Virus record (IMG/VR): IMGVR_UViG_3300011871_000002
Span: 64,001 to 128,000 of that record
Direction: 5' to 3' (one strand)
DNA length: 64,000 bases
DNA from: a virus
Taxonomy: Duplodnaviria; Caudoviricetes
Shown here: positions 6,799-23,529 of the stretch, piece by piece
Layout of the letters: each line of letters starts with the position of its first letter
Numbering within the stretch: the stretch's first letter is position 1
The notes under the pieces: generated by a model
Told to the model about the DNA's origin: nothing
The model's database searches: none
What the model saw: only the letters and a program-made list of their open reading frames with translations
Translations under genes and position numbers: made by a program

Positions 6799-7296
6799 TT
6801 AGCCGAAATGCGCTTTGGCAAACGCTTCCAGGCTCGGGTACACCTGGATGCCAAACACCTTGGCAAACGACTCCATCGCCGAGACAGCTTCGACGCTGGC
6901 TTCGCTTTGCTGAGTGTCGGGCTCTTCTTTGATGATGAGCACGTATTCGTCGCGGTGTTCGGATGGCAGGGCGGCCACGTCTTGCGTCATTTGGATCACG
7001 TCTTCTTCGGTGGCTTCGGTTTGCGATACCCCGAACACTTGCAGGACGCTTTGGTTGGACGAGACTTCGCCACCAGTGAGCATCAAAGCGACGCGCTTGA
7101 GGGTTTCCTCTTCGAGCTGCTGGCTTTCGGTAGCGAGCTGACCTTCTTCGGTAGCTTCCGGGTCTTTCTTGGCGTACTCGTGCTGGAGCATCTCGGTGAA
7201 TGCTTGGCCGAGGGGGCCAGTCAGTTTGATGGGGCGCGCTTCAGTTTCGGCTTCTTCGAGCGCGCGGCGCAGATGCGTGGTAAGACGTTGGGTCAT
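6799..7296 (-). CDS. Acidic hypothetical protein, possible head protein
   Basis: 165 aa; several A-x-E motifs (ALE, ATE, AME) like phiKZ prohead-protease sites. Confidence 0.5.
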   Translation of the reverse strand: MTQRLTTHLRRALEEAETEARPIKLTGPLGQAFTEMLQHEYAKKDPEATEEGQLATESQQLEEETLKRVALMLTGGEVSSNQSVLQVFGVSQTEATEEDVIQMTQDVAALPSEHRDEYVLIIKEEPDTQQSEASVEAVSAMESFAKVFGIQVYPSLEAFAKAHFG

Positions 7297-7993
7297 GGCG
7301 TGTCCTTAGTAAGAGACGAAAAAGGGCTGTCACATAATGAGTGGCTCTGCCTACAAAGACATTAAAAGAGACAAGATGCATTTAAACGCGTTCTAAGCGT
7401 TTATAATGGAGGTTGGTAGATTGTGTCGTCCACCTTCTCAGTATGGCCACAGAAGGCTCCTGATGAGCTGCTAGGGGTATTCGCGCGGCCGCCGCGAGCC
7501 GCCCGGCCCGGCCCGCGCGCCTATCAATATCACTTTTTTTTCACTAAATTGTATCAGGTAGTCTTTCAACAAAAACATGTAATGTGTTTCCAACTTCGTT
7601 TGCTGTTTTCCTCGTATGTTGGGTGTTCTGTTGCGAAGCAAACAACTACCTAAAGGGATTTTTCTCCTAGAAAAAATCCCGTTTAAAATATTTTTATACT
7701 TGAGTTTACCTACCTTATGTGTAGACTTGTAGTTCCCAATTTTTCATGTTGAAAAATCGTCTACTCATAAATAAAGAACCGTGGCGATGGCTTGCGTTGG
7801 GGGTGGGGGGCCTTTATTATAGAGTAGGAGGCTCCAGAGGGCCTCCTACTCTCTATATTTTACGAGTGAAATTTTGGGGGGAGGGAATCCCTTTTTTATT
7901 CCGAAATTGTAGAGTTGCCGAAGTGACATCTTACACAAGGTGAAAACTTACTGAAGGAAGGGATGGTGTAGACATTTAACTTGGGGACCCATC
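7297..7993. other. Long divergent intergenic region with palindromes and AT-rich tracts
   Basis: No convincing ORF; near-pure GC run 7482-7521; hairpins 7655-7680 and 7821-7852. Confidence 0.6.
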
Positions 7994-8608
7994 ATGGCAC
8001 TGATTGCACGCGATACATCGCTCGAACCAGCTCTTGGAAAGGGCGCACCACAAGACGGCACGATCTTTTTTGGCCCCAAGATCGAGATGCCGAAAGGTTT
8101 CGGTAGCCAATTCAACGATCAGTGGATCGCTCTAATGAAACAGGCCGCAGAAGAAGCCTTTGGTGCGACGAAAGACCAAGTCATGGGTTTTGACTTCGGT
8201 GACGATGGCCGTGTCACGGCAATGGCGGCTACGATCGTGAATGTGTCCGAGAGCCTTAAGCAGCGGGTGGAGGAATTCACCAAGAAAGTGGACGGAGCCG
8301 TCAAGGAGGCTACCGAGAAGTTTTTCAAGCGCGATCTTGTCGTGGTGCGGTTGGACTTTGTGGGTTACGGTGTGGGTAAGCGTTTCCAGCAACGTTCCTG
8401 CTCGATGCGGCATAAAAAGCGCCGCCGCAGCCGCGCACTGGAACGGGTCTACAAAGAACGCCGCTTCCGGGAGTTCAAGAATATCTGGCCAAAAAGTATC
8501 GAACCTAGCGGATCGCTCAACTTACCAGAAATGCTCAAGCAATACAGCGCCGGTAATGTCACGCTCAATTTTGCTTTCCAACCAGGATCTTCTCCACAGC
8601 CCAAATAA
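7994..8608 (+). CDS. Hypothetical early protein with Arg/Lys-rich patch
   Basis: 204 aa; GGGGA RBS; RHKKRRRSR motif. Confidence 0.7.
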   Translation: MALIARDTSLEPALGKGAPQDGTIFFGPKIEMPKGFGSQFNDQWIALMKQAAEEAFGATKDQVMGFDFGDDGRVTAMAATIVNVSESLKQRVEEFTKKVDGAVKEATEKFFKRDLVVVRLDFVGYGVGKRFQQRSCSMRHKKRRRSRALERVYKERRFREFKNIWPKSIEPSGSLNLPEMLKQYSAGNVTLNFAFQPGSSPQPK

Positions 8609-8609
8609 C

Positions 8610-8774
8610 ATGCCACTCAACCACAACATGGAAGCGCTCATCCGGCGCATGAAAGAGGAAGGTTTACTTCCCGACATGCCGCCATCGTCCAACCTGAAAG
8701 AACAATATGCGCTACCTGCTCGATCTCTCCATGAGACGCAGCGCGAAGTTTGTCTCTCGGTCGATAGTGTATAA
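8610..8774 (+). CDS. Small hypothetical protein (54 aa)
   Basis: ATG one base after the previous stop; followed by a hairpin. Confidence 0.5.
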   Translation: MPLNHNMEALIRRMKEEGLLPDMPPSSNLKEQYALPARSLHETQREVCLSVDSV

Positions 8775-8854
8775 AAGTGTCATGTTCGACCCTGAGTAGG
8801 GAATCACGGCAGAGGGCGACCCCCTCTGCCTTATGCCGTAAAACCTTGATTGAA

Positions 8855-8883
8855 GGAAATTATAACCACATATCACGCACTGG
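8855..8883 (+). promoter_or_regulatory. Phage early-promoter motif driving tnpB
   Basis: AAATTATAAC-CACATATCAC matches the motif repeated at 15055, 23547, 26229, 34618, 39501 and 46273. Confidence 0.75.
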
Positions 8884-10174
8884 ATAAACCACTAGGGAGG
8901 TCTTATGCAAGAGAATCAAGACCTTCAGCAAGGTCAGGTAAATATTCACAAAACTTTTTGCTATCGCCTTCAACCAACAAAAAAGCAAGAACAACAGTTG
9001 AAGCAGTTTGCTGGATGTTGTCGTTTTGTATATAATTGGGGTTTGGCACGTTGGCAAGAACGATACGCAGCTAATGAATCAACTAGCGTTTTTGCTATTA
9101 GCAATGAATTGGTTTTGTTGAAGAAAGAAACTGAATATGCTTGGCTAAATGAATGTTCAGCACAGGCACTGCAACAGTCATTAGCAAATCTTGGTTCAGC
9201 ATTCAAAGCGTTCTTTGAGAAACGTTCCTCTTATCCGGTTTTCAAAAAGAAAGGAAAAAGAGAAGCATTTCGTTTTATGCAATATTTCAAAGTTCTAGAC
9301 AGGCACCTACAGTTACCTTTACTGGGTTTTGTAAAGTATCGAAAAAATCGTCCTGTCGAAGGTACTGTAAAACATGTTACGATATCACTGTCTGGCGAGC
9401 ACTGGTACGCTAGTGTAACTTGTGAAGTCAGAGTTGAAAAGAAGTACAACAATCCAAGAACTATCGTAGGTGTTGATGTTGGCGTAAAGAACTTTGCGAC
9501 AACGTTTGATGGTAATGAATCAAAACACCATCATCATCTTTTAAGCTTGCAACAAGAAACAGATAAACTCAAGAAACTTCAGAGACAGTTTTGTCATAAA
9601 CAGAAAGGATCAAATAACCGTAACAAAGCTCGATTGAAGCTCAGTAAGCAACACCAACGCATTAAACACATTCGCCACGACACCATCCACAAACTCACTA
9701 CTGCATTATGCAAAAACCACGCAGCAGTAGCGGTTGAGGATTTGTGTATCAAACACATGACGAAAAGTGCACGCGGTACAAAAGAGTATCCTGGTAAAAG
9801 AGTAGCCCAAAAACGTGGTCTTAACCGATCCATCGCTCAGCAAGGTTGGGGTATTCTTTTTCGTCAACTACTTTACAAATGTAACTGGTACGGTTCGTTG
9901 TTTGTGTTAGTTTCAGCAAAAAATACCAGTCAGATGTGTCCTTGCTGTGATTTCATTGCAAAAGAAAATAGACCAACACAATCTGGTTTTAAATGCATAG
10001 ACTGTGAATATACACAACACGCCGATATCGTTGGTGCAATGAATATTCGCCGCCGCGGTATGTCGTGTTTTGGCTAGAGTCTTAAAGGGTCGGGCAGACC
10101 CGGTTCGCCTGTGAAGTGAGGGATGTAGTAGTGTCTCCAGCAGCAGGAATCTCGATTTTAGGGAATGTCATCAC
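8877..10174 (+). mobile_element. Non-autonomous IS200/IS605-type tnpB-only element (boundaries approximate)
   Basis: AT-rich relative to flanks; tnpB plus IS605-like right-end sequence; no tnpA; flanks rejoin into an intact promoter. Confidence 0.75.
8905..10077 (+). CDS. tnpB: TnpB RNA-guided endonuclease
   Basis: N-terminal YRLQPTKKQ...AGCCRFVYNWGL helix-turn-helix region; RuvC D/E/D in VGVDVG, VAVEDL, HADIVGAMNI; Zn finger CPCC...CIDC. Confidence 0.95.
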   Translation: MQENQDLQQGQVNIHKTFCYRLQPTKKQEQQLKQFAGCCRFVYNWGLARWQERYAANESTSVFAISNELVLLKKETEYAWLNECSAQALQQSLANLGSAFKAFFEKRSSYPVFKKKGKREAFRFMQYFKVLDRHLQLPLLGFVKYRKNRPVEGTVKHVTISLSGEHWYASVTCEVRVEKKYNNPRTIVGVDVGVKNFATTFDGNESKHHHHLLSLQQETDKLKKLQRQFCHKQKGSNNRNKARLKLSKQHQRIKHIRHDTIHKLTTALCKNHAAVAVEDLCIKHMTKSARGTKEYPGKRVAQKRGLNRSIAQQGWGILFRQLLYKCNWYGSLFVLVSAKNTSQMCPCCDFIAKENRPTQSGFKCIDCEYTQHADIVGAMNIRRRGMSCFG

Positions 10175-10192
10175 GCCACTGAGTAGAGTAAC
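10030..10192 (+). ncRNA. Putative omegaRNA (scaffold plus guide) of TnpB; 5' end uncertain
   Basis: GGGTCGGGCAGACCC hairpin, then CGCCTGTGAAG...GCAGGAATC...ATGTCA, resembling IS605-family right ends; guide is the following flank. Confidence 0.65.
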
Positions 10193-10237
10193 ATCTGCTT
10201 CTTAACAATCATTCAAGAAAATAGGAGAATAGCAACT

Positions 10238-10804
10238 ATGGCCGTTTCACTCACCTTTGATCTTCAAAACGCTACGACTGACTGGCAAATCTACTGGCGT
10301 CTCGTGATGGAGAACCCAGAAAGCTTCTTGTCGGATGAACACCGCAAGACCATCCGTGAGCAACTCCCGCAGGAAATTCTCGACATGGAGATCTCGCCTG
10401 CCGAAAAGGAACGAGTCATTACCATGGCCGCGAAAGCGTGGGAGGAAGTCAAGACTCCGTCCAATATCTGGAGAAAGCATATCTACGCTTCTCAGCCGGT
10501 CGCTCGTGAGGAAAAGCCGCTGGCTGAGTACAAGAAAATGTTGCTCGGTGTCGCGGATGAGTTTATTGCTGAAGTCGATAAGATCGCGGAGATAAAGCAA
10601 CGCGTTGCCACGGCCAAGACCTTCCGGGTGAAGTTTTCGCAAGCCTTCCACAACGCCATGGTTAAAGCGCTGGTTAAAGAGAATTATCCGCACCTCAACC
10701 AAGGTGGCACCAGCCAGCGTAAACGTCGTCGTGTCAAGTCGATCATCGCCGCCAATCGCGCTCGTCTCAAAATGAAAATCATCAAGAAAGAAGGGAACAA
10801 GTAA
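10238..10804 (+). CDS. Hypothetical early protein, basic C-terminus
   Basis: 188 aa; AGGAG RBS; SQRKRRRVK motif. Confidence 0.75.
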   Translation: MAVSLTFDLQNATTDWQIYWRLVMENPESFLSDEHRKTIREQLPQEILDMEISPAEKERVITMAAKAWEEVKTPSNIWRKHIYASQPVAREEKPLAEYKKMLLGVADEFIAEVDKIAEIKQRVATAKTFRVKFSQAFHNAMVKALVKENYPHLNQGGTSQRKRRRVKSIIAANRARLKMKIIKKEGNK

Positions 10805-18784: not shown

Positions 18785-19243
18785 ATGAAAAAGCGCAGGG
18801 CTGTGTTGTTAGATTTGACCGGCCCTGTGGCCGTGCTTGCTCAGGATTTTTACGAATGGGCGATCACTTATGTGAGTAATCCGGCCTGGGTGTCGTCGCC
18901 TTTTGCCATGATCCAGACCGAGATGTTCCGGCACTTCATCGAGTCGGTGCTCTACGAGATTTTCAAGGAACACCACCATTCGCTGCTTATCGATGTGGAA
19001 CCGGAGTCGAACAAGTTTTTGCGTGAGCAAGGCATGCCACAGGAACTCGTGCTCAAGCTCAAGTGTGAATTTCTCAATAGCGTATTGGCCATCATCTACC
19101 GTGCCTTGCCTGACATTTACTTTGCGGAAATCGAAGCTTGTGATTACGGTTTGACAAATAGCAGTACGCTCATGATTCATATCAACGAAGACGCCGATCA
19201 GCCGATGTTTTTGGCAGCAACACCACCGCCTTCGCGTGTTTAA
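18785..19243 (+). CDS. Hypothetical protein (possible paralogue array member)
   Basis: 152 aa; AAGGA RBS. Confidence 0.7.
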   Translation: MKKRRAVLLDLTGPVAVLAQDFYEWAITYVSNPAWVSSPFAMIQTEMFRHFIESVLYEIFKEHHHSLLIDVEPESNKFLREQGMPQELVLKLKCEFLNSVLAIIYRALPDIYFAEIEACDYGLTNSSTLMIHINEDADQPMFLAATPPPSRV

Positions 19244-19289
19244 TATCCCCCACCGCAGCTTGTTTAGTGCGGTGGCTTAGGAGAATTCC

Positions 19290-19784
19290 ATGATCAATGT
19301 TTTTATTCTGGATTGTCATGATGCCATCAAACAGTTTGTAGGAGAGACAGTGGATTTGGATTTTCCTGTCATTGAAATGCCTACCATTATGCGAGATGTG
19401 ATGGCGGTTTTGGAAAATGAAGAACCCGAAGCCACCGATCTTCATAGCGCAGCCTGCCACTACATTTATGACCATACCGGCCACATCGATCACTTTGATC
19501 CGTATGTGTACGAAGGTATGGAAGATCGTCTTTATTCCGCAATGTTAAAGCTGGCTGGCCGCGTTAGAAATAAACTGCGTCACCACCATGCGTATGCAGA
19601 CGGCCACTTCCCATTTACTTTTACGAAATTCGTCAACGATGGCACATTCATACTCACCCGAAAACGAGAAGCAGACGGCTCCTTCGCACATCATCCTCGA
19701 CACACGGGTGATGCTGAACGAGCTGATGCCGATCATGATGCCGTATCTAGAAGAAACCGAGAGCGCGCCTACGCGTACCGCTAA
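19290..19784 (+). CDS. Hypothetical protein (paralogue array member)
   Basis: 164 aa; AGGAG RBS. Confidence 0.7.
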   Translation: MINVFILDCHDAIKQFVGETVDLDFPVIEMPTIMRDVMAVLENEEPEATDLHSAACHYIYDHTGHIDHFDPYVYEGMEDRLYSAMLKLAGRVRNKLRHHHAYADGHFPFTFTKFVNDGTFILTRKREADGSFAHHPRHTGDAERADADHDAVSRRNRERAYAYR

Positions 19785-21363: not shown

Positions 21364-23529
21364 ATGAACGCACTAGCCGACAATCCATTTGTTCTGCCTA
21401 TCGAGGCGTACACCCGCGACCTCGACGTAGTGAAGCATTACAAATCCGATGCTGCCTGCTATTTGTCGATCATGTCTGGTCGCCCAGTCGAACACTGCGC
21501 GGCGTGGATCGAGAAACAACTGGCCAAGGGTGGCAAGTTCGAATTCAAAGACCCCAAAGTGATGTTCCTGCACCGTCAGGAAAATGGCGACCGCATCAAG
21601 CGTGCCATGCCATTCATGGGTTACCTCAACGAAGCGATCCGTAACCAAGAATTGATCGCAGCTACCTTTACCACGTATATTCATCCGTCGAAGAAGCAAT
21701 CACTCCTCGTGGACTATATCGACGATAACGTGGCAATGCGCAGCAAAGCCAAGAAGGCGATGTTCGCCGCCGATGCTGCCGGCGACAAGGCCACGGCAGT
21801 GCTCAAGAAGATCGAGCAGAATAACCGCAAGATCCGTAACAACGCTATTTCCGGCTCACACGTGACTCCGTCCACTCCGATGTATAACCCGACCGGTCAC
21901 AGCACCCTGACCTCGACCTGCCGTGTCACATCTGGTTATGGCAACGTCAACAACGAAAAACTGGTGGCAGGCAATCGCCATTACTGGTCACCGCAGATAG
22001 TAGTCAACAACATTATCTCCATCGTCAACCACAGTGACTACCAGGCCATCCGCGCGGTGATGGAAAAGTACGACCTGCATTATCCAACAACGGATGAGAC
22101 GATGGCGTGCATTCGGTATTCGACCGACCTGTACTGGCCGCGTAACCTCCAAGCACTGGCGCGCATTCGTCTGTTGGTCGACAAACTCACTCCGATCCAG
22201 CGCGCTGCATTCATGTACACGGGTGATATGTATCACCTCATGAAGCACAATGAAGCATTCGTGCGTTCGTTCCTGGATCAGTTGTCGTATCGTCCGAGCG
22301 AACCCCATGCGCATCCAGAAAAAATCATTTCTAAGGTGCGAGGCGACTATCTGAATCTGGCCGGCGTCATTTGTGCTGACATCATCATGGCGGTCAACCC
22401 TGGCAAAAACCAAGAACCGCCGTATGCGAACCTGAAAGGCACCCACGTCTATGGCATCATTGCTGCCACGTCGGAAAATATCGCCAACGTGCTGCAAAAG
22501 TATGCGGACCTGATCAAAGCGTTCTGGGTGACATCTAACGTACCAGCATCTTTGGCCAAACTGCCAGATAGCATCCGTCGTGTGGCACTCGTGTCCGATA
22601 CTGACTCGACCATTTTCACGGTTCAGGATTGGGTGATCTGGCACCAAGGCCGCCCTGGCTTTGACCCCAAGTGTAAAGCCATCGGTGGCTGCATGATCTT
22701 CTTGGCGTCGCAAACCGTCACACACATCCTGGCCAAGATGTCGGCGAACTTTGGTATCGAGCAAAAGCGCTTGTTCCAAATCGCCATGAAGAACGAGTAC
22801 TACTTTGACGTGTTCGTCCCGACCCGTGTGGCTAAGCACTACTATGCGATCAAGTCGGTACAGGAAGGTCAAATCTTTGCCAAACTCAAAGACGAGATCA
22901 AGGGTGTGCACCTGAAGTCCTCCAACGTGTCCAAAGAAGTCATCGAGGAAGCTGCGGTGATGATGCGCGACATCATGGATTTGGTTATGAATGAGCAAAA
23001 GATCAATTTGCTCACCATGGTCCAGCGCGTAGCGGATATTGAACGTCGGGTGATTGCGACCATCAAGCGTGGCGACGAAGATTATTTTAAGTCGACCCAG
23101 ATCAAGGCTGCTGAATCGTACACCAAGGCCAAAGAGGATTCGCCTTTCCAGCACCATACCTTCTGGCAAGAAGTGTTCGCACCCAAGTACGGCTATGCAG
23201 AAGAACCGCCGTATGCAGTGCTGAAGATTTCGGTGGACTTGTCCTCGAACGTGAAGATGCGCCAGTGGATGGACGGCTTTAAGGATCGCGCATTAGCCGA
23301 TCGTATGGAGAAGTATATTGCGAAGACTGGTAAGATGAAGAACATCACCACCTTCCAGTTGCCGCAACCGGTCATCGCCCAGTGCGGCATTCCGGAAGAA
23401 ATCTTCGAAATGATCAACTACCGCCGCATCGTCATGGATACCGTCAAGGTGATGTACCTCGTCCTCGAAACATTAGGTTTTTATATGGCCAATGATCGTA
23501 TCACCAAACTCGTCAGTGACGATTATTAA
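21364..23529 (+). CDS. Family-B DNA polymerase, catalytic subunit (phiKZ gp50-like)
   Basis: Motif B K-x3-N-x2-SG (KIRNNAISG), motif C SDTDS, K-x-Y and KG motifs. Confidence 0.88.
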   Translation: MNALADNPFVLPIEAYTRDLDVVKHYKSDAACYLSIMSGRPVEHCAAWIEKQLAKGGKFEFKDPKVMFLHRQENGDRIKRAMPFMGYLNEAIRNQELIAATFTTYIHPSKKQSLLVDYIDDNVAMRSKAKKAMFAADAAGDKATAVLKKIEQNNRKIRNNAISGSHVTPSTPMYNPTGHSTLTSTCRVTSGYGNVNNEKLVAGNRHYWSPQIVVNNIISIVNHSDYQAIRAVMEKYDLHYPTTDETMACIRYSTDLYWPRNLQALARIRLLVDKLTPIQRAAFMYTGDMYHLMKHNEAFVRSFLDQLSYRPSEPHAHPEKIISKVRGDYLNLAGVICADIIMAVNPGKNQEPPYANLKGTHVYGIIAATSENIANVLQKYADLIKAFWVTSNVPASLAKLPDSIRRVALVSDTDSTIFTVQDWVIWHQGRPGFDPKCKAIGGCMIFLASQTVTHILAKMSANFGIEQKRLFQIAMKNEYYFDVFVPTRVAKHYYAIKSVQEGQIFAKLKDEIKGVHLKSSNVSKEVIEEAAVMMRDIMDLVMNEQKINLLTMVQRVADIERRVIATIKRGDEDYFKSTQIKAAESYTKAKEDSPFQHHTFWQEVFAPKYGYAEEPPYAVLKISVDLSSNVKMRQWMDGFKDRALADRMEKYIAKTGKMKNITTFQLPQPVIAQCGIPEEIFEMINYRRIVMDTVKVMYLVLETLGFYMANDRITKLVSDDY

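What the first reader, a model, noticed from the sequence alone, without database searches (positions are those of the whole stretch)
8855..10200. TnpB cassette inserted inside a phage early promoter, with a guide that targets the empty promoter
Seen: the left flank reads CACATATCAC|GCACTGGATAAA. The right end reads GGAATGTCA-TCAC|GCCACTGAGTAGAGTAACATCTGCTT. Removing the cassette gives CACATATCAC-GCCAC-TGA, an exact fit to the (C/T)ACATATYAC-N5-TGA early-promoter consensus in this window, followed by a leader hairpin (GAGTAGA/TCTGCTT) like those at the other promoters. The cassette's own 5' copy lacks one C (GCACTG against GCCACTG) and then diverges. All three RuvC residues are intact, there is no tnpA, the leader is under 30 nt and the right-end hairpin looks degenerate. 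Established: TnpB uses the flank downstream of the right end as its guide and cuts next to a 5' TAM; TCAC is a known TnpB TAM. Inference: this acts as an RNA-guided homing endonuclease. It would be expressed from the captured promoter, cut the element-free allele of co-infecting relatives, and avoid self-cleavage through the seed mismatch. It would also need access to DNA inside the phage nucleus.
Basis: partly seen in the sequence, partly recalled or inferred. Interest (0 to 1): 0.9.

Follow-up and report, generated by a model that had tools for sequence, protein, structure and literature searches.

The report
TnpB element splitting a jumbo-phage promoter
A 1.3-kb selfish element that carries only an RNA-guided nuclease gene (tnpB) and its guide RNA sits inside an early promoter of a nucleus-forming jumbo phage, and a natural relative still has the uninterrupted promoter that the guide matches exactly, so this looks like a gene drive between phages, though no activity has been shown.

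Summary
A metagenomic relative (L097) carries the element-free allele. It reads ...ACATATCAC-GCCAC-TGAGTAGAG..., exactly as predicted, and its flanks are 96-100% identical to the window.

The insert is 1,298 bp. It holds an intact TnpB (390 aa, with the RuvC residues D191/E278/D374 and the zinc finger) and a conserved, covarying guide-RNA scaffold. There is no tnpA, and neither end has a DNA hairpin.

The host genome is a 218.7-kb chimallivirus (nucleus-forming phage). The nearest TnpB relatives (45-68% identity) lie at other sites in other chimallivirus contigs. Five of them again sit about 30-40 nt behind a (T/C)ATAT|YAC early-promoter-like core.

One correction: independent copies across the wider family show that the right end stops at ...GTCAA/GTCAT and that the TAM (the short motif required next to the target) is TT(T/G)AT. 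Here, therefore, the TAM is most likely CATAT inside the promoter, and the guide starts at CACGCC (10172). TCAC is not the TAM. The right junction escapes self-cutting because GTCAT replaces the TAM.

Homing, early expression and access to the phage nucleus are all inferred, not shown. A third natural allele, with tnpB deleted internally, suggests a cycle of invasion and decay.

This scan has noted TnpA-less TnpB elements in other jumbo phages before. Verdict: a new variant of a known kind.

The parts
8808..8838 (+). Terminator hairpin of the upstream gene plus the TATGCCG tail. This is native phage sequence, not part of the element.
   Evidence: Sequence. The same hairpin+TATGCCG design recurs about 45 times in the genome and is present in the empty allele L097.
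8850..8876 (+). Early-promoter-like element: an AT-rich stretch plus the core ACATATCAC (8868-8876).
   Evidence: Motif enrichment. The same motif is kept upstream of the PhuZ (phage tubulin) gene in the syntenic relative. Its function as a virion-RNA-polymerase promoter is inferred from PMC7598289.
8869..8873 (+). Inferred TAM, CATAT: the last bases of the left flank in the IS605 register.
   Evidence: The family TAM is TTTAT/TTGAT, taken from independent copies. Clade members have TATAT, TTTAT, ACTAT or CATAT at the same place.
8874..10171 (+). The inserted element, 1,298 bp. The register is chosen by homology to the family ends; any register from 8872-10169 to 8879-10176 gives the same empty site.
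   Evidence: Absent from L097, which otherwise matches the window at 96-100% on both sides.
8874..8904 (+). Left end and leader, 31 nt. It starts with CAC, which completes ATAT|CAC, carries the RBS GGGAGG (8895-8900), and has no hairpin.
   Evidence: -1 kcal/mol, no better than shuffles. Clade left ends are compared.
8905..10077 (+). tnpB, 390 aa, with catalytic residues intact.
10085..10171 (+). Conserved guide-RNA (omega-RNA) scaffold downstream of the stop codon, ending ...GGGAATGTCAT. Its 5' start, possibly inside the ORF, was not mapped.
   Evidence: Alignment and consensus fold of 8 phage-clade loci: 21 pairs, 11 of them with compensatory changes. No Rfam family matched.
10172..10187 (+). 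Inferred 16-nt guide, CACGCCACTGAGTAGA. It is the displaced 3' half of the promoter (CAC, GCCAC, TGA) plus the first bases of the leader.
   Evidence: Right-end boundary. The L097 target is identical for more than 30 nt. The only perfect match in the phage's own genome is this junction.
10181..10200 (+). Leader RNA hairpin of the downstream gene.
10238..10804 (+). Downstream gene (188 aa, no known family). Its promoter was split by the insertion.
   Evidence: The 83%-identical homologue P0122 sits behind the intact promoter in L097.
8872..8878 (+). Left copy of the 7-nt direct repeat ATCACGC. The right copy is at 10170-10176.
   Evidence: a single copy in the empty allele.

Best explanation
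This is a non-autonomous IS200/IS605-type element that has been reduced to tnpB plus its guide RNA. It lies between the ATAT and the CAC of an early promoter in a nucleus-forming jumbo phage.

Shown:
- It is a 1,298-bp insertion relative to a natural sister allele.
- The nuclease gene and the structured RNA scaffold are intact and conserved.
- The bases just right of the element match the empty allele perfectly.

Inferred mechanism:
- The phage's virion RNA polymerase starts at the promoter, which the element's own first bases (CAC) rebuild.
- The transcript runs through tnpB and the scaffold into the flank. TnpB trims it into a guide RNA whose guide is CACGCCACTGAGTAGA.
- In a cell co-infected by an element-free relative, the complex recognises CATAT plus that sequence in the rival's promoter and cuts it.
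- Repair from the occupied genome copies the element in (homing), or the rival is simply damaged (interference).
- The element's own right junction is spared because GTCAT replaces the TAM. The left junction is spared because only 5 nt match.

The lineage appears specialised for such phages, and its TAM overlaps the conserved core of their early promoters.
For: - Empty allele: L097 reads exactly as predicted, and its flanks are 96-100% identical to the window. There is 1 difference in the 378 nt upstream and none in the first 29 nt downstream.
- TnpB: domains, catalytic D-E-D and zinc finger are intact, with a full-length match to ISDra2 TnpB.
- Guide RNA: the scaffold is conserved with compensatory base changes in 8 phage loci.
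- Boundaries: the right-end boundary and the TAM were fixed from many independent family copies.
- Guide specificity: there is a single perfect match in the phage's own genome, behind GTCAT, and no 20-nt match in about 185,000 prokaryote genomes.
- No route for TnpA-driven movement: no tnpA, and no DNA hairpin at either end, against -11 kcal/mol for the IS609 left end.
- Lineage: the nearest relatives sit at other loci of other chimallivirus contigs. They form a separate clade (SH-aLRT 100, quick tree).
- Promoter association: W, L003, L004, L016 and L098 all have (T/C)ATAT|YAC 28-41 nt before the ATG.
- Literature: TnpB homing, and the high sensitivity of cutting to TAM mutations, are established for ISGst2. 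TnpA-independent spread into plasmids or phages has been discussed. A protein homing endonuclease that acts between co-infecting nucleus-forming phages is known (PMC11620839).
Against: - There is no RNA, cleavage or co-infection data, and no RNA run holds the locus.
- TnpB would need to reach DNA that chimalliviruses shield. Nothing here shows import.
- The TAM is assigned by homology only. CATAT differs from the family's TTTAT at two positions.
- A natural allele with tnpB deleted internally (9052-10113) shows the element can be lost without obvious harm.
- The relative L002 has an altered right end that doubles as the start of the next gene, so not every clade member need be active.
- How the lineage reaches new sites without TnpA or end hairpins is unexplained.
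- Near-identical flanks would also result from a recent precise loss.
Confidence: 0.55

Rival explanations
1. It is an ordinary non-autonomous insertion sequence, moved in and out by a TnpA supplied in trans (from a host IS or the missing 18% of the phage). TnpB only restores excised copies, and the empty allele is a precise TnpA excision product.
For: The insertion is seamless and lies next to a family-type TAM. The right end is homologous to the IS609-type ends. The record is only 82% complete. Precise excision would give exactly L097.
Against: The left end is 31 nt with no hairpin, and the last 52 nt of the right end do not fold as DNA, whereas IS609 has a clear left-end palindrome. No tnpA lies next to any of the nine phage-clade copies examined. 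A lytic phage offers little time for peel-and-paste on host terms.
Confidence: 0.15
2. It is a stranded, functionless passenger: a past insertion that is drifting towards loss. The guide/empty-site match is only the automatic by-product of any IS605-type insertion.
For: The match between the right flank and the empty site follows from the insertion geometry alone. A deleted allele exists in a metagenome. The downstream gene may simply be read through.
Against: The 390-codon ORF is open with every catalytic residue invariant. The RNA scaffold keeps its helices through compensatory changes across loci that share only 50-68% protein identity. The lineage has colonised several different phages and sites.
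Confidence: 0.2
3. It is a domesticated regulator. The TnpB-guide RNA complex binds early promoters without cutting (they all share TAM-like ATAT plus YAC...TGA) and tunes early transcription, as TldR repressors do.
For: The TAM and guide positions 1-3 and 9-11 coincide with the promoter consensus. The left junction carries a TAM plus a 5-nt match.
Against: The RuvC triad is intact, whereas TldRs are nuclease-dead. Other promoters match at only about 6 of 16 guide positions. The element is absent from a close relative and deleted in another, so it is not a fixed regulator.
Confidence: 0.05
4. The 'empty' allele is secondary: the cassette was deleted by recombination between the two ATCACGC repeats, so the promoter in L097 is a chimaera rather than the ancestral site.
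For: A 7-nt direct repeat brackets the insert exactly, and short repeats do mediate deletions.
Against: The restored sequence fits the genome's own ACATATYAC-N5-TGA spacing and the leader-hairpin design. The right-hand CAC-N5-TGA would otherwise have to be there by chance. L003 and L004 show the same N5-TGA after their right ends. Much of the repeat is explained by the element-borne YAC meeting the promoter's own YAC.
Confidence: 0.05

Closest known systems
IS609/ISGst2/ISDra2-type TnpB with omega-RNA (IS200/IS605 family)
   Same: Same three-domain TnpB with the D-E-D RuvC triad and zinc finger (E 1e-53 to ISDra2, 44% identity to E. coli InsQ). The scaffold has the same 3' motif, GGAATC-stem-GGATGTCA. 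The guide is taken from the flank right of the element, there is a 5' TAM of the TTTAT/TTGAT type, and the guide plus TAM equals the empty site.
   Different: No TnpA. The left end is cut down to 31 nt without a palindrome, and the right-end palindrome is reduced to a 4-bp RNA stem. The right end stops in GTCAT instead of GTCAA. The left end begins with YAC so that TAM plus left end spells a phage early-promoter core. It lives in lytic nucleus-forming phages.
TnpB-only (IS1341-type) non-autonomous elements
   Same: tnpB plus guide RNA without a transposase gene.
   Different: Those elements keep both end hairpins and depend on TnpA in trans. Here neither end folds.
Free-standing and intron-borne homing endonucleases of phages (T4 Seg/Mob; PhiPA3 gp210)
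   Same: A nuclease gene present in one phage and absent from a near-identical relative, whose target is the empty allele. gp210 shows that such nucleases can act between co-infecting chimalliviruses (PMC11620839). The same genome also carries HNH and GIY-YIG elements (first-reader notes).
   Different: Target recognition would be by RNA guide plus TAM rather than by protein. The target is a promoter rather than a conserved coding sequence.
TldR (nuclease-dead TnpB-like repressors at promoters)
   Same: A TnpB-family protein whose guide matches a TAM-flanked promoter sequence.
   Different: The catalytic residues are intact here. The guide matches the promoter only in the element-free allele.

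Membership tests
TnpB (OMEGA RNA-guided nuclease) | HTH/WED-REC, RuvC (OrfB_IS605) and zinc-ribbon TNB domains | tested here: met
   Pfam hits at 2.5e-19, 9.8e-24 and 3.3e-18, all above their cut-offs. Full-length match to 8h1j/8bf8.
TnpB (OMEGA RNA-guided nuclease) | RuvC catalytic D-E-D and CxxC...CxxC zinc finger present | tested here: met
   D191, E278, D374 and C345/C348/C364/C367 are invariant in 16 sequences and align to the ISDra2 motifs.
TnpB (OMEGA RNA-guided nuclease) | Structured guide-RNA scaffold at the 3' end of the gene, running to the right end of the element | tested here: met
   Conserved block 10085-10171. The consensus fold has 11 of 21 pairs with compensatory changes. No Rfam model exists or matched.
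TnpB (OMEGA RNA-guided nuclease) | Guide (the flank right of the element) matches the element-free site next to a TAM | tested here: met
   L097 carries CATAT followed by the guide-matching sequence, identical for more than 30 nt. The TAM identity rests on homology.
TnpB (OMEGA RNA-guided nuclease) | RNA-guided, TAM-dependent DNA cleavage | not testable with these tools
   Needs biochemistry.
Autonomous or TnpA-mobilisable IS200/IS605 element | Y1 (HUH) TnpA in the element or genome | tested here: not met
   PF01797 has no match in the 218.7-kb record, while the control genomes do match. The record is 82% complete.
Autonomous or TnpA-mobilisable IS200/IS605 element | Subterminal imperfect palindromes at the left and right ends | tested here: not met
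   Left end -1 kcal/mol and last 52 nt of the right end -0.2 kcal/mol, no better than shuffles. The IS609 left end folds at -11.1 kcal/mol.
Autonomous or TnpA-mobilisable IS200/IS605 element | Insertion 3' of a fixed short motif, without target duplication | tested here: inconclusive
   The junction fits TAM|left end. However, a 7-nt repeat ATCACGC brackets the insert. It is partly explained by the left end and the promoter both carrying CAC.
Chimallivirus (nucleus-forming jumbo phage) | Chimallin shell protein, split multisubunit RNA polymerases, PhuZ-like tubulin | tested here: met
   phrog_4795 at 1.2e-72 and RNA polymerase beta pieces. The PhuZ homologue is matched to a TubZ-annotated gene in the relative.
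Virion-RNA-polymerase early promoter | Conserved AT-rich motif of about 10 nt, over-represented, upstream of operons, centred near -10 | tested here: met
   The motif is kept upstream of PhuZ in the relative although the spacer has diverged. The definition comes from PMC7598289.
Virion-RNA-polymerase early promoter | Mapped transcription start and early timing | not testable with these tools
   No RNA run holds the locus.
Homing genetic element | Occupied and empty alleles in otherwise near-identical genomes | tested here: met
   The window against L097, plus a deleted allele in run X1.
Homing genetic element | Super-Mendelian transmission after cleavage of the empty allele | not testable with these tools
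   Needs co-infection experiments.
TldR nuclease-dead repressor | Loss of RuvC catalytic residues | tested here: not met
   All three residues are present.

The most novel reading that the evidence does not exclude
A TnpB lineage has become a transposase-free gene drive of nucleus-forming jumbo phages. Its TAM (xxTAT) is the conserved core of their virion-polymerase early promoters, and its left end starts with YAC. Every insertion therefore rebuilds an immediate-early promoter for tnpB, while the displaced promoter half becomes the guide. The nuclease then acts on co-infecting genomes despite the phage nucleus, perhaps before the shell closes or by being imported.
Probability: 0.3. Interest if true: 0.85.

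Novelty: new variant of a known kind. Interest (0 to 1): 0.68.

Why it matters
TnpB is the ancestor of Cas12, and its natural role has been shown mainly as a helper that keeps bacterial insertion sequences from being lost. This locus offers four things:

- **A natural homing substrate.** It provides an occupied/empty pair, plus a decayed allele, in a lytic phage. This is the situation in which TnpA-independent 'non-restorative' homing has only been proposed.
- **A specialised lineage.** The lineage seems adapted to chimalliviruses, and its TAM overlaps their early-promoter core.
- **A test case for nuclear access.** It allows a direct test of whether an RNA-guided nuclease can reach DNA that these phages hide from CRISPR and restriction enzymes.
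- **Practical leads.** It points to compact nucleases that tolerate the phage-nucleus life style, and to promoter motifs for uncultured jumbo phages.

If TnpB proves inactive or excluded, the locus is still a clean example of promoter-targeted insertion in a jumbo phage.

Tried and rejected
**Searches that found nothing**
- DNA searches of the locus against GenBank phages, near and distant: no match.
- tblastn of the 529-aa neighbour: no match.
- IMG/VR scans with the 188-aa neighbour, with TnpB alone, with the right flank and with the empty junction: nothing.
- JGI metagenome scan with the right flank: nothing.
- The upstream 204-aa protein has no relatives.
- Relatives of the L016 flank gene: only L016 itself.

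**Relatives and runs that did not help**
- The syntenic relative L013 has unrelated genes in place of window 7400-10800, so it gave no empty allele.
- No RNA holder is listed for the locus.
- Run X1 covers only parts of the stretch at low depth. The uncovered parts say nothing.
- The X1 contig that joins the right end to the L097-type flank could be an assembly path through the 36 nt shared by both alleles. I therefore do not rely on it for haplotype arguments.

**Readings I considered and dropped**
- TCAC as the TAM, in favour of the family boundaries.
- The whole promoter as part of the mobile unit, because L097 keeps everything up to ACATATCAC. L002, however, does carry a promoter-like piece inside a longer left end.
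- The TATGCCGTAAAAC resemblance to IS609 left ends as a sign of a longer left end. It is a genome-wide terminator motif.
- The 8-nt CTGAGTAG repeat (8792-8799 and 10179-10186) as a boundary. Both copies are in the empty allele.

**Not resolved**
- The variable direct repeats (3-9 nt) between left-end starts and right flanks are only partly explained. L006's 8-10 nt repeat remains unexplained.
Full report
**What is at the coordinates**

ACATATCAC lies at 8868-8876 behind an AT-rich stretch, followed by GCACTGGATAAACC. An RBS (GGGAGG) precedes a 390-codon ORF at 8905-10077. After the stop comes about 95 nt of non-coding sequence ending GGGAATGTCATCAC (10161-10174). This is followed by GCCAC-TGA and a stretch that folds as a 7-bp RNA hairpin (10181-10200, -7.2 kcal/mol).

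The ORF has the three Pfam domains of TnpB. It aligns end to end with ISDra2 TnpB (E 1e-53). It keeps D191, E278, D374 and the four zinc-finger cysteines, all invariant among its 15 nearest relatives. The cassette is AT-richer (about 39% GC) than its flanks (about 52%).

**The genome**

The window is part of a 218.7-kb IMG/VR virus record, estimated 82% complete. The record encodes chimallin (the phage-nucleus shell protein), split RNA-polymerase beta subunits and a divergent DNA polymerase. It is therefore a nucleus-forming jumbo phage. It is only distantly related to cultured ones: the best chimallin identity is 30%. It has one TnpB and no Y1 transposase.

**The promoter motif**

ACATATYAC is enriched in the window, 6 copies against 0.44 expected. 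The extended form with N5-TGA occurs 3 times against 0.00 expected. In the whole genome there are ten copies on the + strand, each behind an AT-rich run, and nine are followed by N5-TG. The copy upstream of the PhuZ (phage tubulin) gene is retained in a syntenic relative although the surrounding spacer differs.

Reviews of RNA-polymerase-encoding jumbo phages describe early promoters as just such conserved AT-rich motifs of about 10 nt, centred near -10 (PMC7598289). Its function here is inferred.

**The decisive test: the empty allele exists**

The 188-aa downstream protein has a single relative, at 83% identity. Its 2.8-kb contig, L097 (Logan, SRR27257357), reads upstream of the gene: terminator hairpin, TATGCCGTAAAACC, AT-rich stretch, then ACATATCACGCCACTGAGTAGAGTAACATCTGCTTCTTAA.

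With 1,298 bp removed from the window, the two sequences align at 96-100% identity over about 2.2 kb. There is one difference in the 378 nt to the left and none in the first 29 nt to the right.

A 7-nt repeat ATCACGC (8872-8878 and 10170-10176) brackets the insert. The register of the junction is therefore ambiguous, but the restored sequence is not.

**Where the element really ends**

I fixed the boundaries from relatives.

- *Right end.* Two independent insertions of the E. coli IS609-type element (TnpB 44% identical, same 3' scaffold motif) diverge immediately after GGAGGATGTCA(A). Many pairs of copies in IMG/VR contigs do the same: the right end is always ...GGATGTCAA|.
- *Left end.* On the left, the conserved block of these copies begins with TTTAT or TTGAT. 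These are the experimentally known TAMs of ISGst2 TnpB2 and ISDra2.

By homology, the window's right end stops at GTCAT (10171). The guide starts at CACGCCACTGAGTAGA (10172-10187), the left flank ends in CATAT (8869-8873), and the left end starts CACGCACTGG. TCAC is a real TAM of another TnpB, AmaTnpB, but it is probably not the TAM here.

In that model the same TCAC would precede the guide match at the element's own right junction. In the corrected register that junction has GTCAT where the TAM should be. ISGst2 TnpB2 is highly sensitive to TAM changes. The left junction has the TAM but matches the guide for only 5 nt before a one-base gap.

In the phage's own genome the guide has no other match with fewer than 3 mismatches, and none of the near-matches lies behind TAT. 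A 20-nt version has no match in about 185,000 prokaryote genomes.

**The guide RNA**

The block from about 10085 to 10171 is conserved in eight phage-borne loci whose proteins share 50-68% identity. The consensus fold has 21 pairs, 11 of them with compensatory changes, including the short terminal stem (UCUC/GGGA in the window; UCUC/GAGA and UCCU/AGGA elsewhere). No Rfam family matches.

The last 52 nt do not fold as single-stranded DNA, and the 31-nt left end has no hairpin at all, whereas the IS609 left end has a clear palindrome. With no tnpA as well, TnpA-driven movement looks unlikely. This is an inference.

**A phage-adapted lineage**

The nearest proteins in a 5.8-billion-sequence search lie on contigs with chimallivirus markers.

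| Protein / locus | Identity | Contig context |
|---|---|---|
| P0002 | 68% | 140.9-kb contig with PhuZ-like, DNA polymerase and chimallin genes; syntenic with the window |
| L016 | 58% | 322.6-kb IMG/VR contig |
| P0006 | 52% | Beside phiKZ inner-body genes |
| P0008 | 50% | Just upstream of PhuZ |
| P0016 | 45% | 254.8-kb contig with the phiKZ-type capsid gene |

Each sits at a different locus, in the same orientation as its neighbours, with no tnpA nearby. A quick maximum-likelihood tree puts 21 sequences, including all of these, on one side of a branch with SH-aLRT 100. The named bacterial homologues are on the other side (the careful search did not finish).

In the window, L003, L004, L016 and L098, the sequence 28-41 nt before the ATG is (T/C)ATAT|YAC behind an AT-rich run. 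In L003 and L004 the right flank again reads YAC-N5-TGA. In L098 the flank reads TAG, so the consensus TAC is supplied by the left end alone.

This suggests that the left end of this lineage carries YAC, so that TAM plus left end spells a promoter core. That also explains most of the direct repeat seen in the window: the element's CAC and the promoter's own CAC. Extra matches remain unexplained, namely GC in the window and an 8-10-nt repeat in L006.

**Other alleles and relatives**

A marine metagenome run (X1) holds a close relative at low depth. One 396-nt contig joins 9051 to 10114. This removes most of tnpB but keeps the last 58 nt of the right end and the flank. Another contig matches from 8783 onward with unrelated sequence upstream. 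Three states therefore exist in nature: full, internally deleted and empty. That is what one expects from the invasion-decay-loss cycle of homing elements. The X1 evidence is thin.

In the relative L002, the homologous element is inserted after TTTAT inside the first codons of another gene. The window provides the empty site there: ATG ATC AAT GTT TTT ATT CTG GAT TGT. Its longer left end carries a degenerate promoter-like piece, and its altered right end supplies a new start codon for the interrupted gene.

**How it most likely works, and what is not shown**

*Shown:*
- It is an insertion into a promoter-like motif.
- The nuclease gene and the RNA scaffold are intact.
- The guide matches the natural empty allele perfectly, next to a family-like TAM.
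- The element's own junctions differ from that target.

*Inferred:*
- Early transcription from the rebuilt promoter, and read-through that yields the guide RNA.
- Cleavage of element-free relatives in co-infection, followed by homing or interference.
- Access to shielded phage DNA.

*Literature context:*
- TnpB homing is established in bacteria (PMC10055086).
- TnpA-independent spread into homologous plasmids or phages has been discussed as 'non-restorative homing' (PMC13565253).
- A protein homing endonuclease that works between co-infecting chimalliviruses is known (PMC11620839).
- I found no paper describing TnpB in chimallivirus promoters.
- Earlier notes of this scan describe TnpA-less TnpB elements in other jumbo phages, one at the edge of a promoter. 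None shares sequence with this one.

**Verdict**

- It is a new variant of a known kind of element. Interest is fairly high, because the natural empty/occupied pair and the promoter-core targeting make RNA-guided homing in nucleus-forming phages directly testable.

Noticed in passing
whole genome; in the window e.g. 5021, 8832, 14209, 17562, 21289, 24917, 45545, 48261, 56634, 61804: About 45 terminator-like hairpins share a conserved base: CGGCATAAA...stem-loop...TTTATGCCG. Many are readable on both strands. TATGCCG occurs 60 times against about 27 expected, and nearly all copies lie directly behind a hairpin. The same tail follows hairpins in other chimallivirus contigs (L098, L010). It may be a phage-specific termination or 3'-end signal.
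   Followed up: partly
L002:7870-9300 compared with window 19240-19310: In the syntenic relative, the homologous TnpB element sits inside the first codons of a conserved gene, after TTTAT. Its altered right end contains a new RBS and ATG that restore an in-frame N-terminus (MEVKLKIVILDC against MINVFILDC in the window).
   Followed up: partly
window 9052-10113 (run X1): A metagenomic contig joins 9051 directly to 10114 with no shared bases at the joint. This is a natural internal deletion of 1,062 bp that removes TnpB codons 50-390 but keeps both ends of the element.
   Followed up: partly
window 7300-10800 compared with L013:5356-8692: This interval is a hypervariable island. The close relative has four unrelated genes here, although the genes on both sides are 46-80% identical in protein. 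Run X1 also switches to unrelated sequence upstream of 8783.
   Followed up: partly
L006:5950-5975 and 7280-7300: In the element upstream of PhuZ in another phage, ATGTGGAGCT occurs both at the start of its left end and immediately after its right end. This 10-nt direct repeat is too long for chance and is not explained by the promoter logic.
   Followed up: no
window 7994-8774: The differences from L097 fall on third codon positions of ORF 7994-8608, not of the overlapping ORF 8241-8774. The real genes are therefore probably 7994-8608 (204 aa) and a small ORF at 8610-8774.
   Followed up: partly
L104:569-2113: A 57.5-kb NCBI metagenome-assembled contig carries two TnpB genes 3 kb apart. One is 514 aa with an extra N-terminal region that gives a faint acetyltransferase hit.
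   Followed up: no
window 22223-22231 (- strand): The only minus-strand copy of ACATATCAC lies inside the DNA polymerase gene, without an AT-rich run before it. It is probably a chance match.
   Followed up: no
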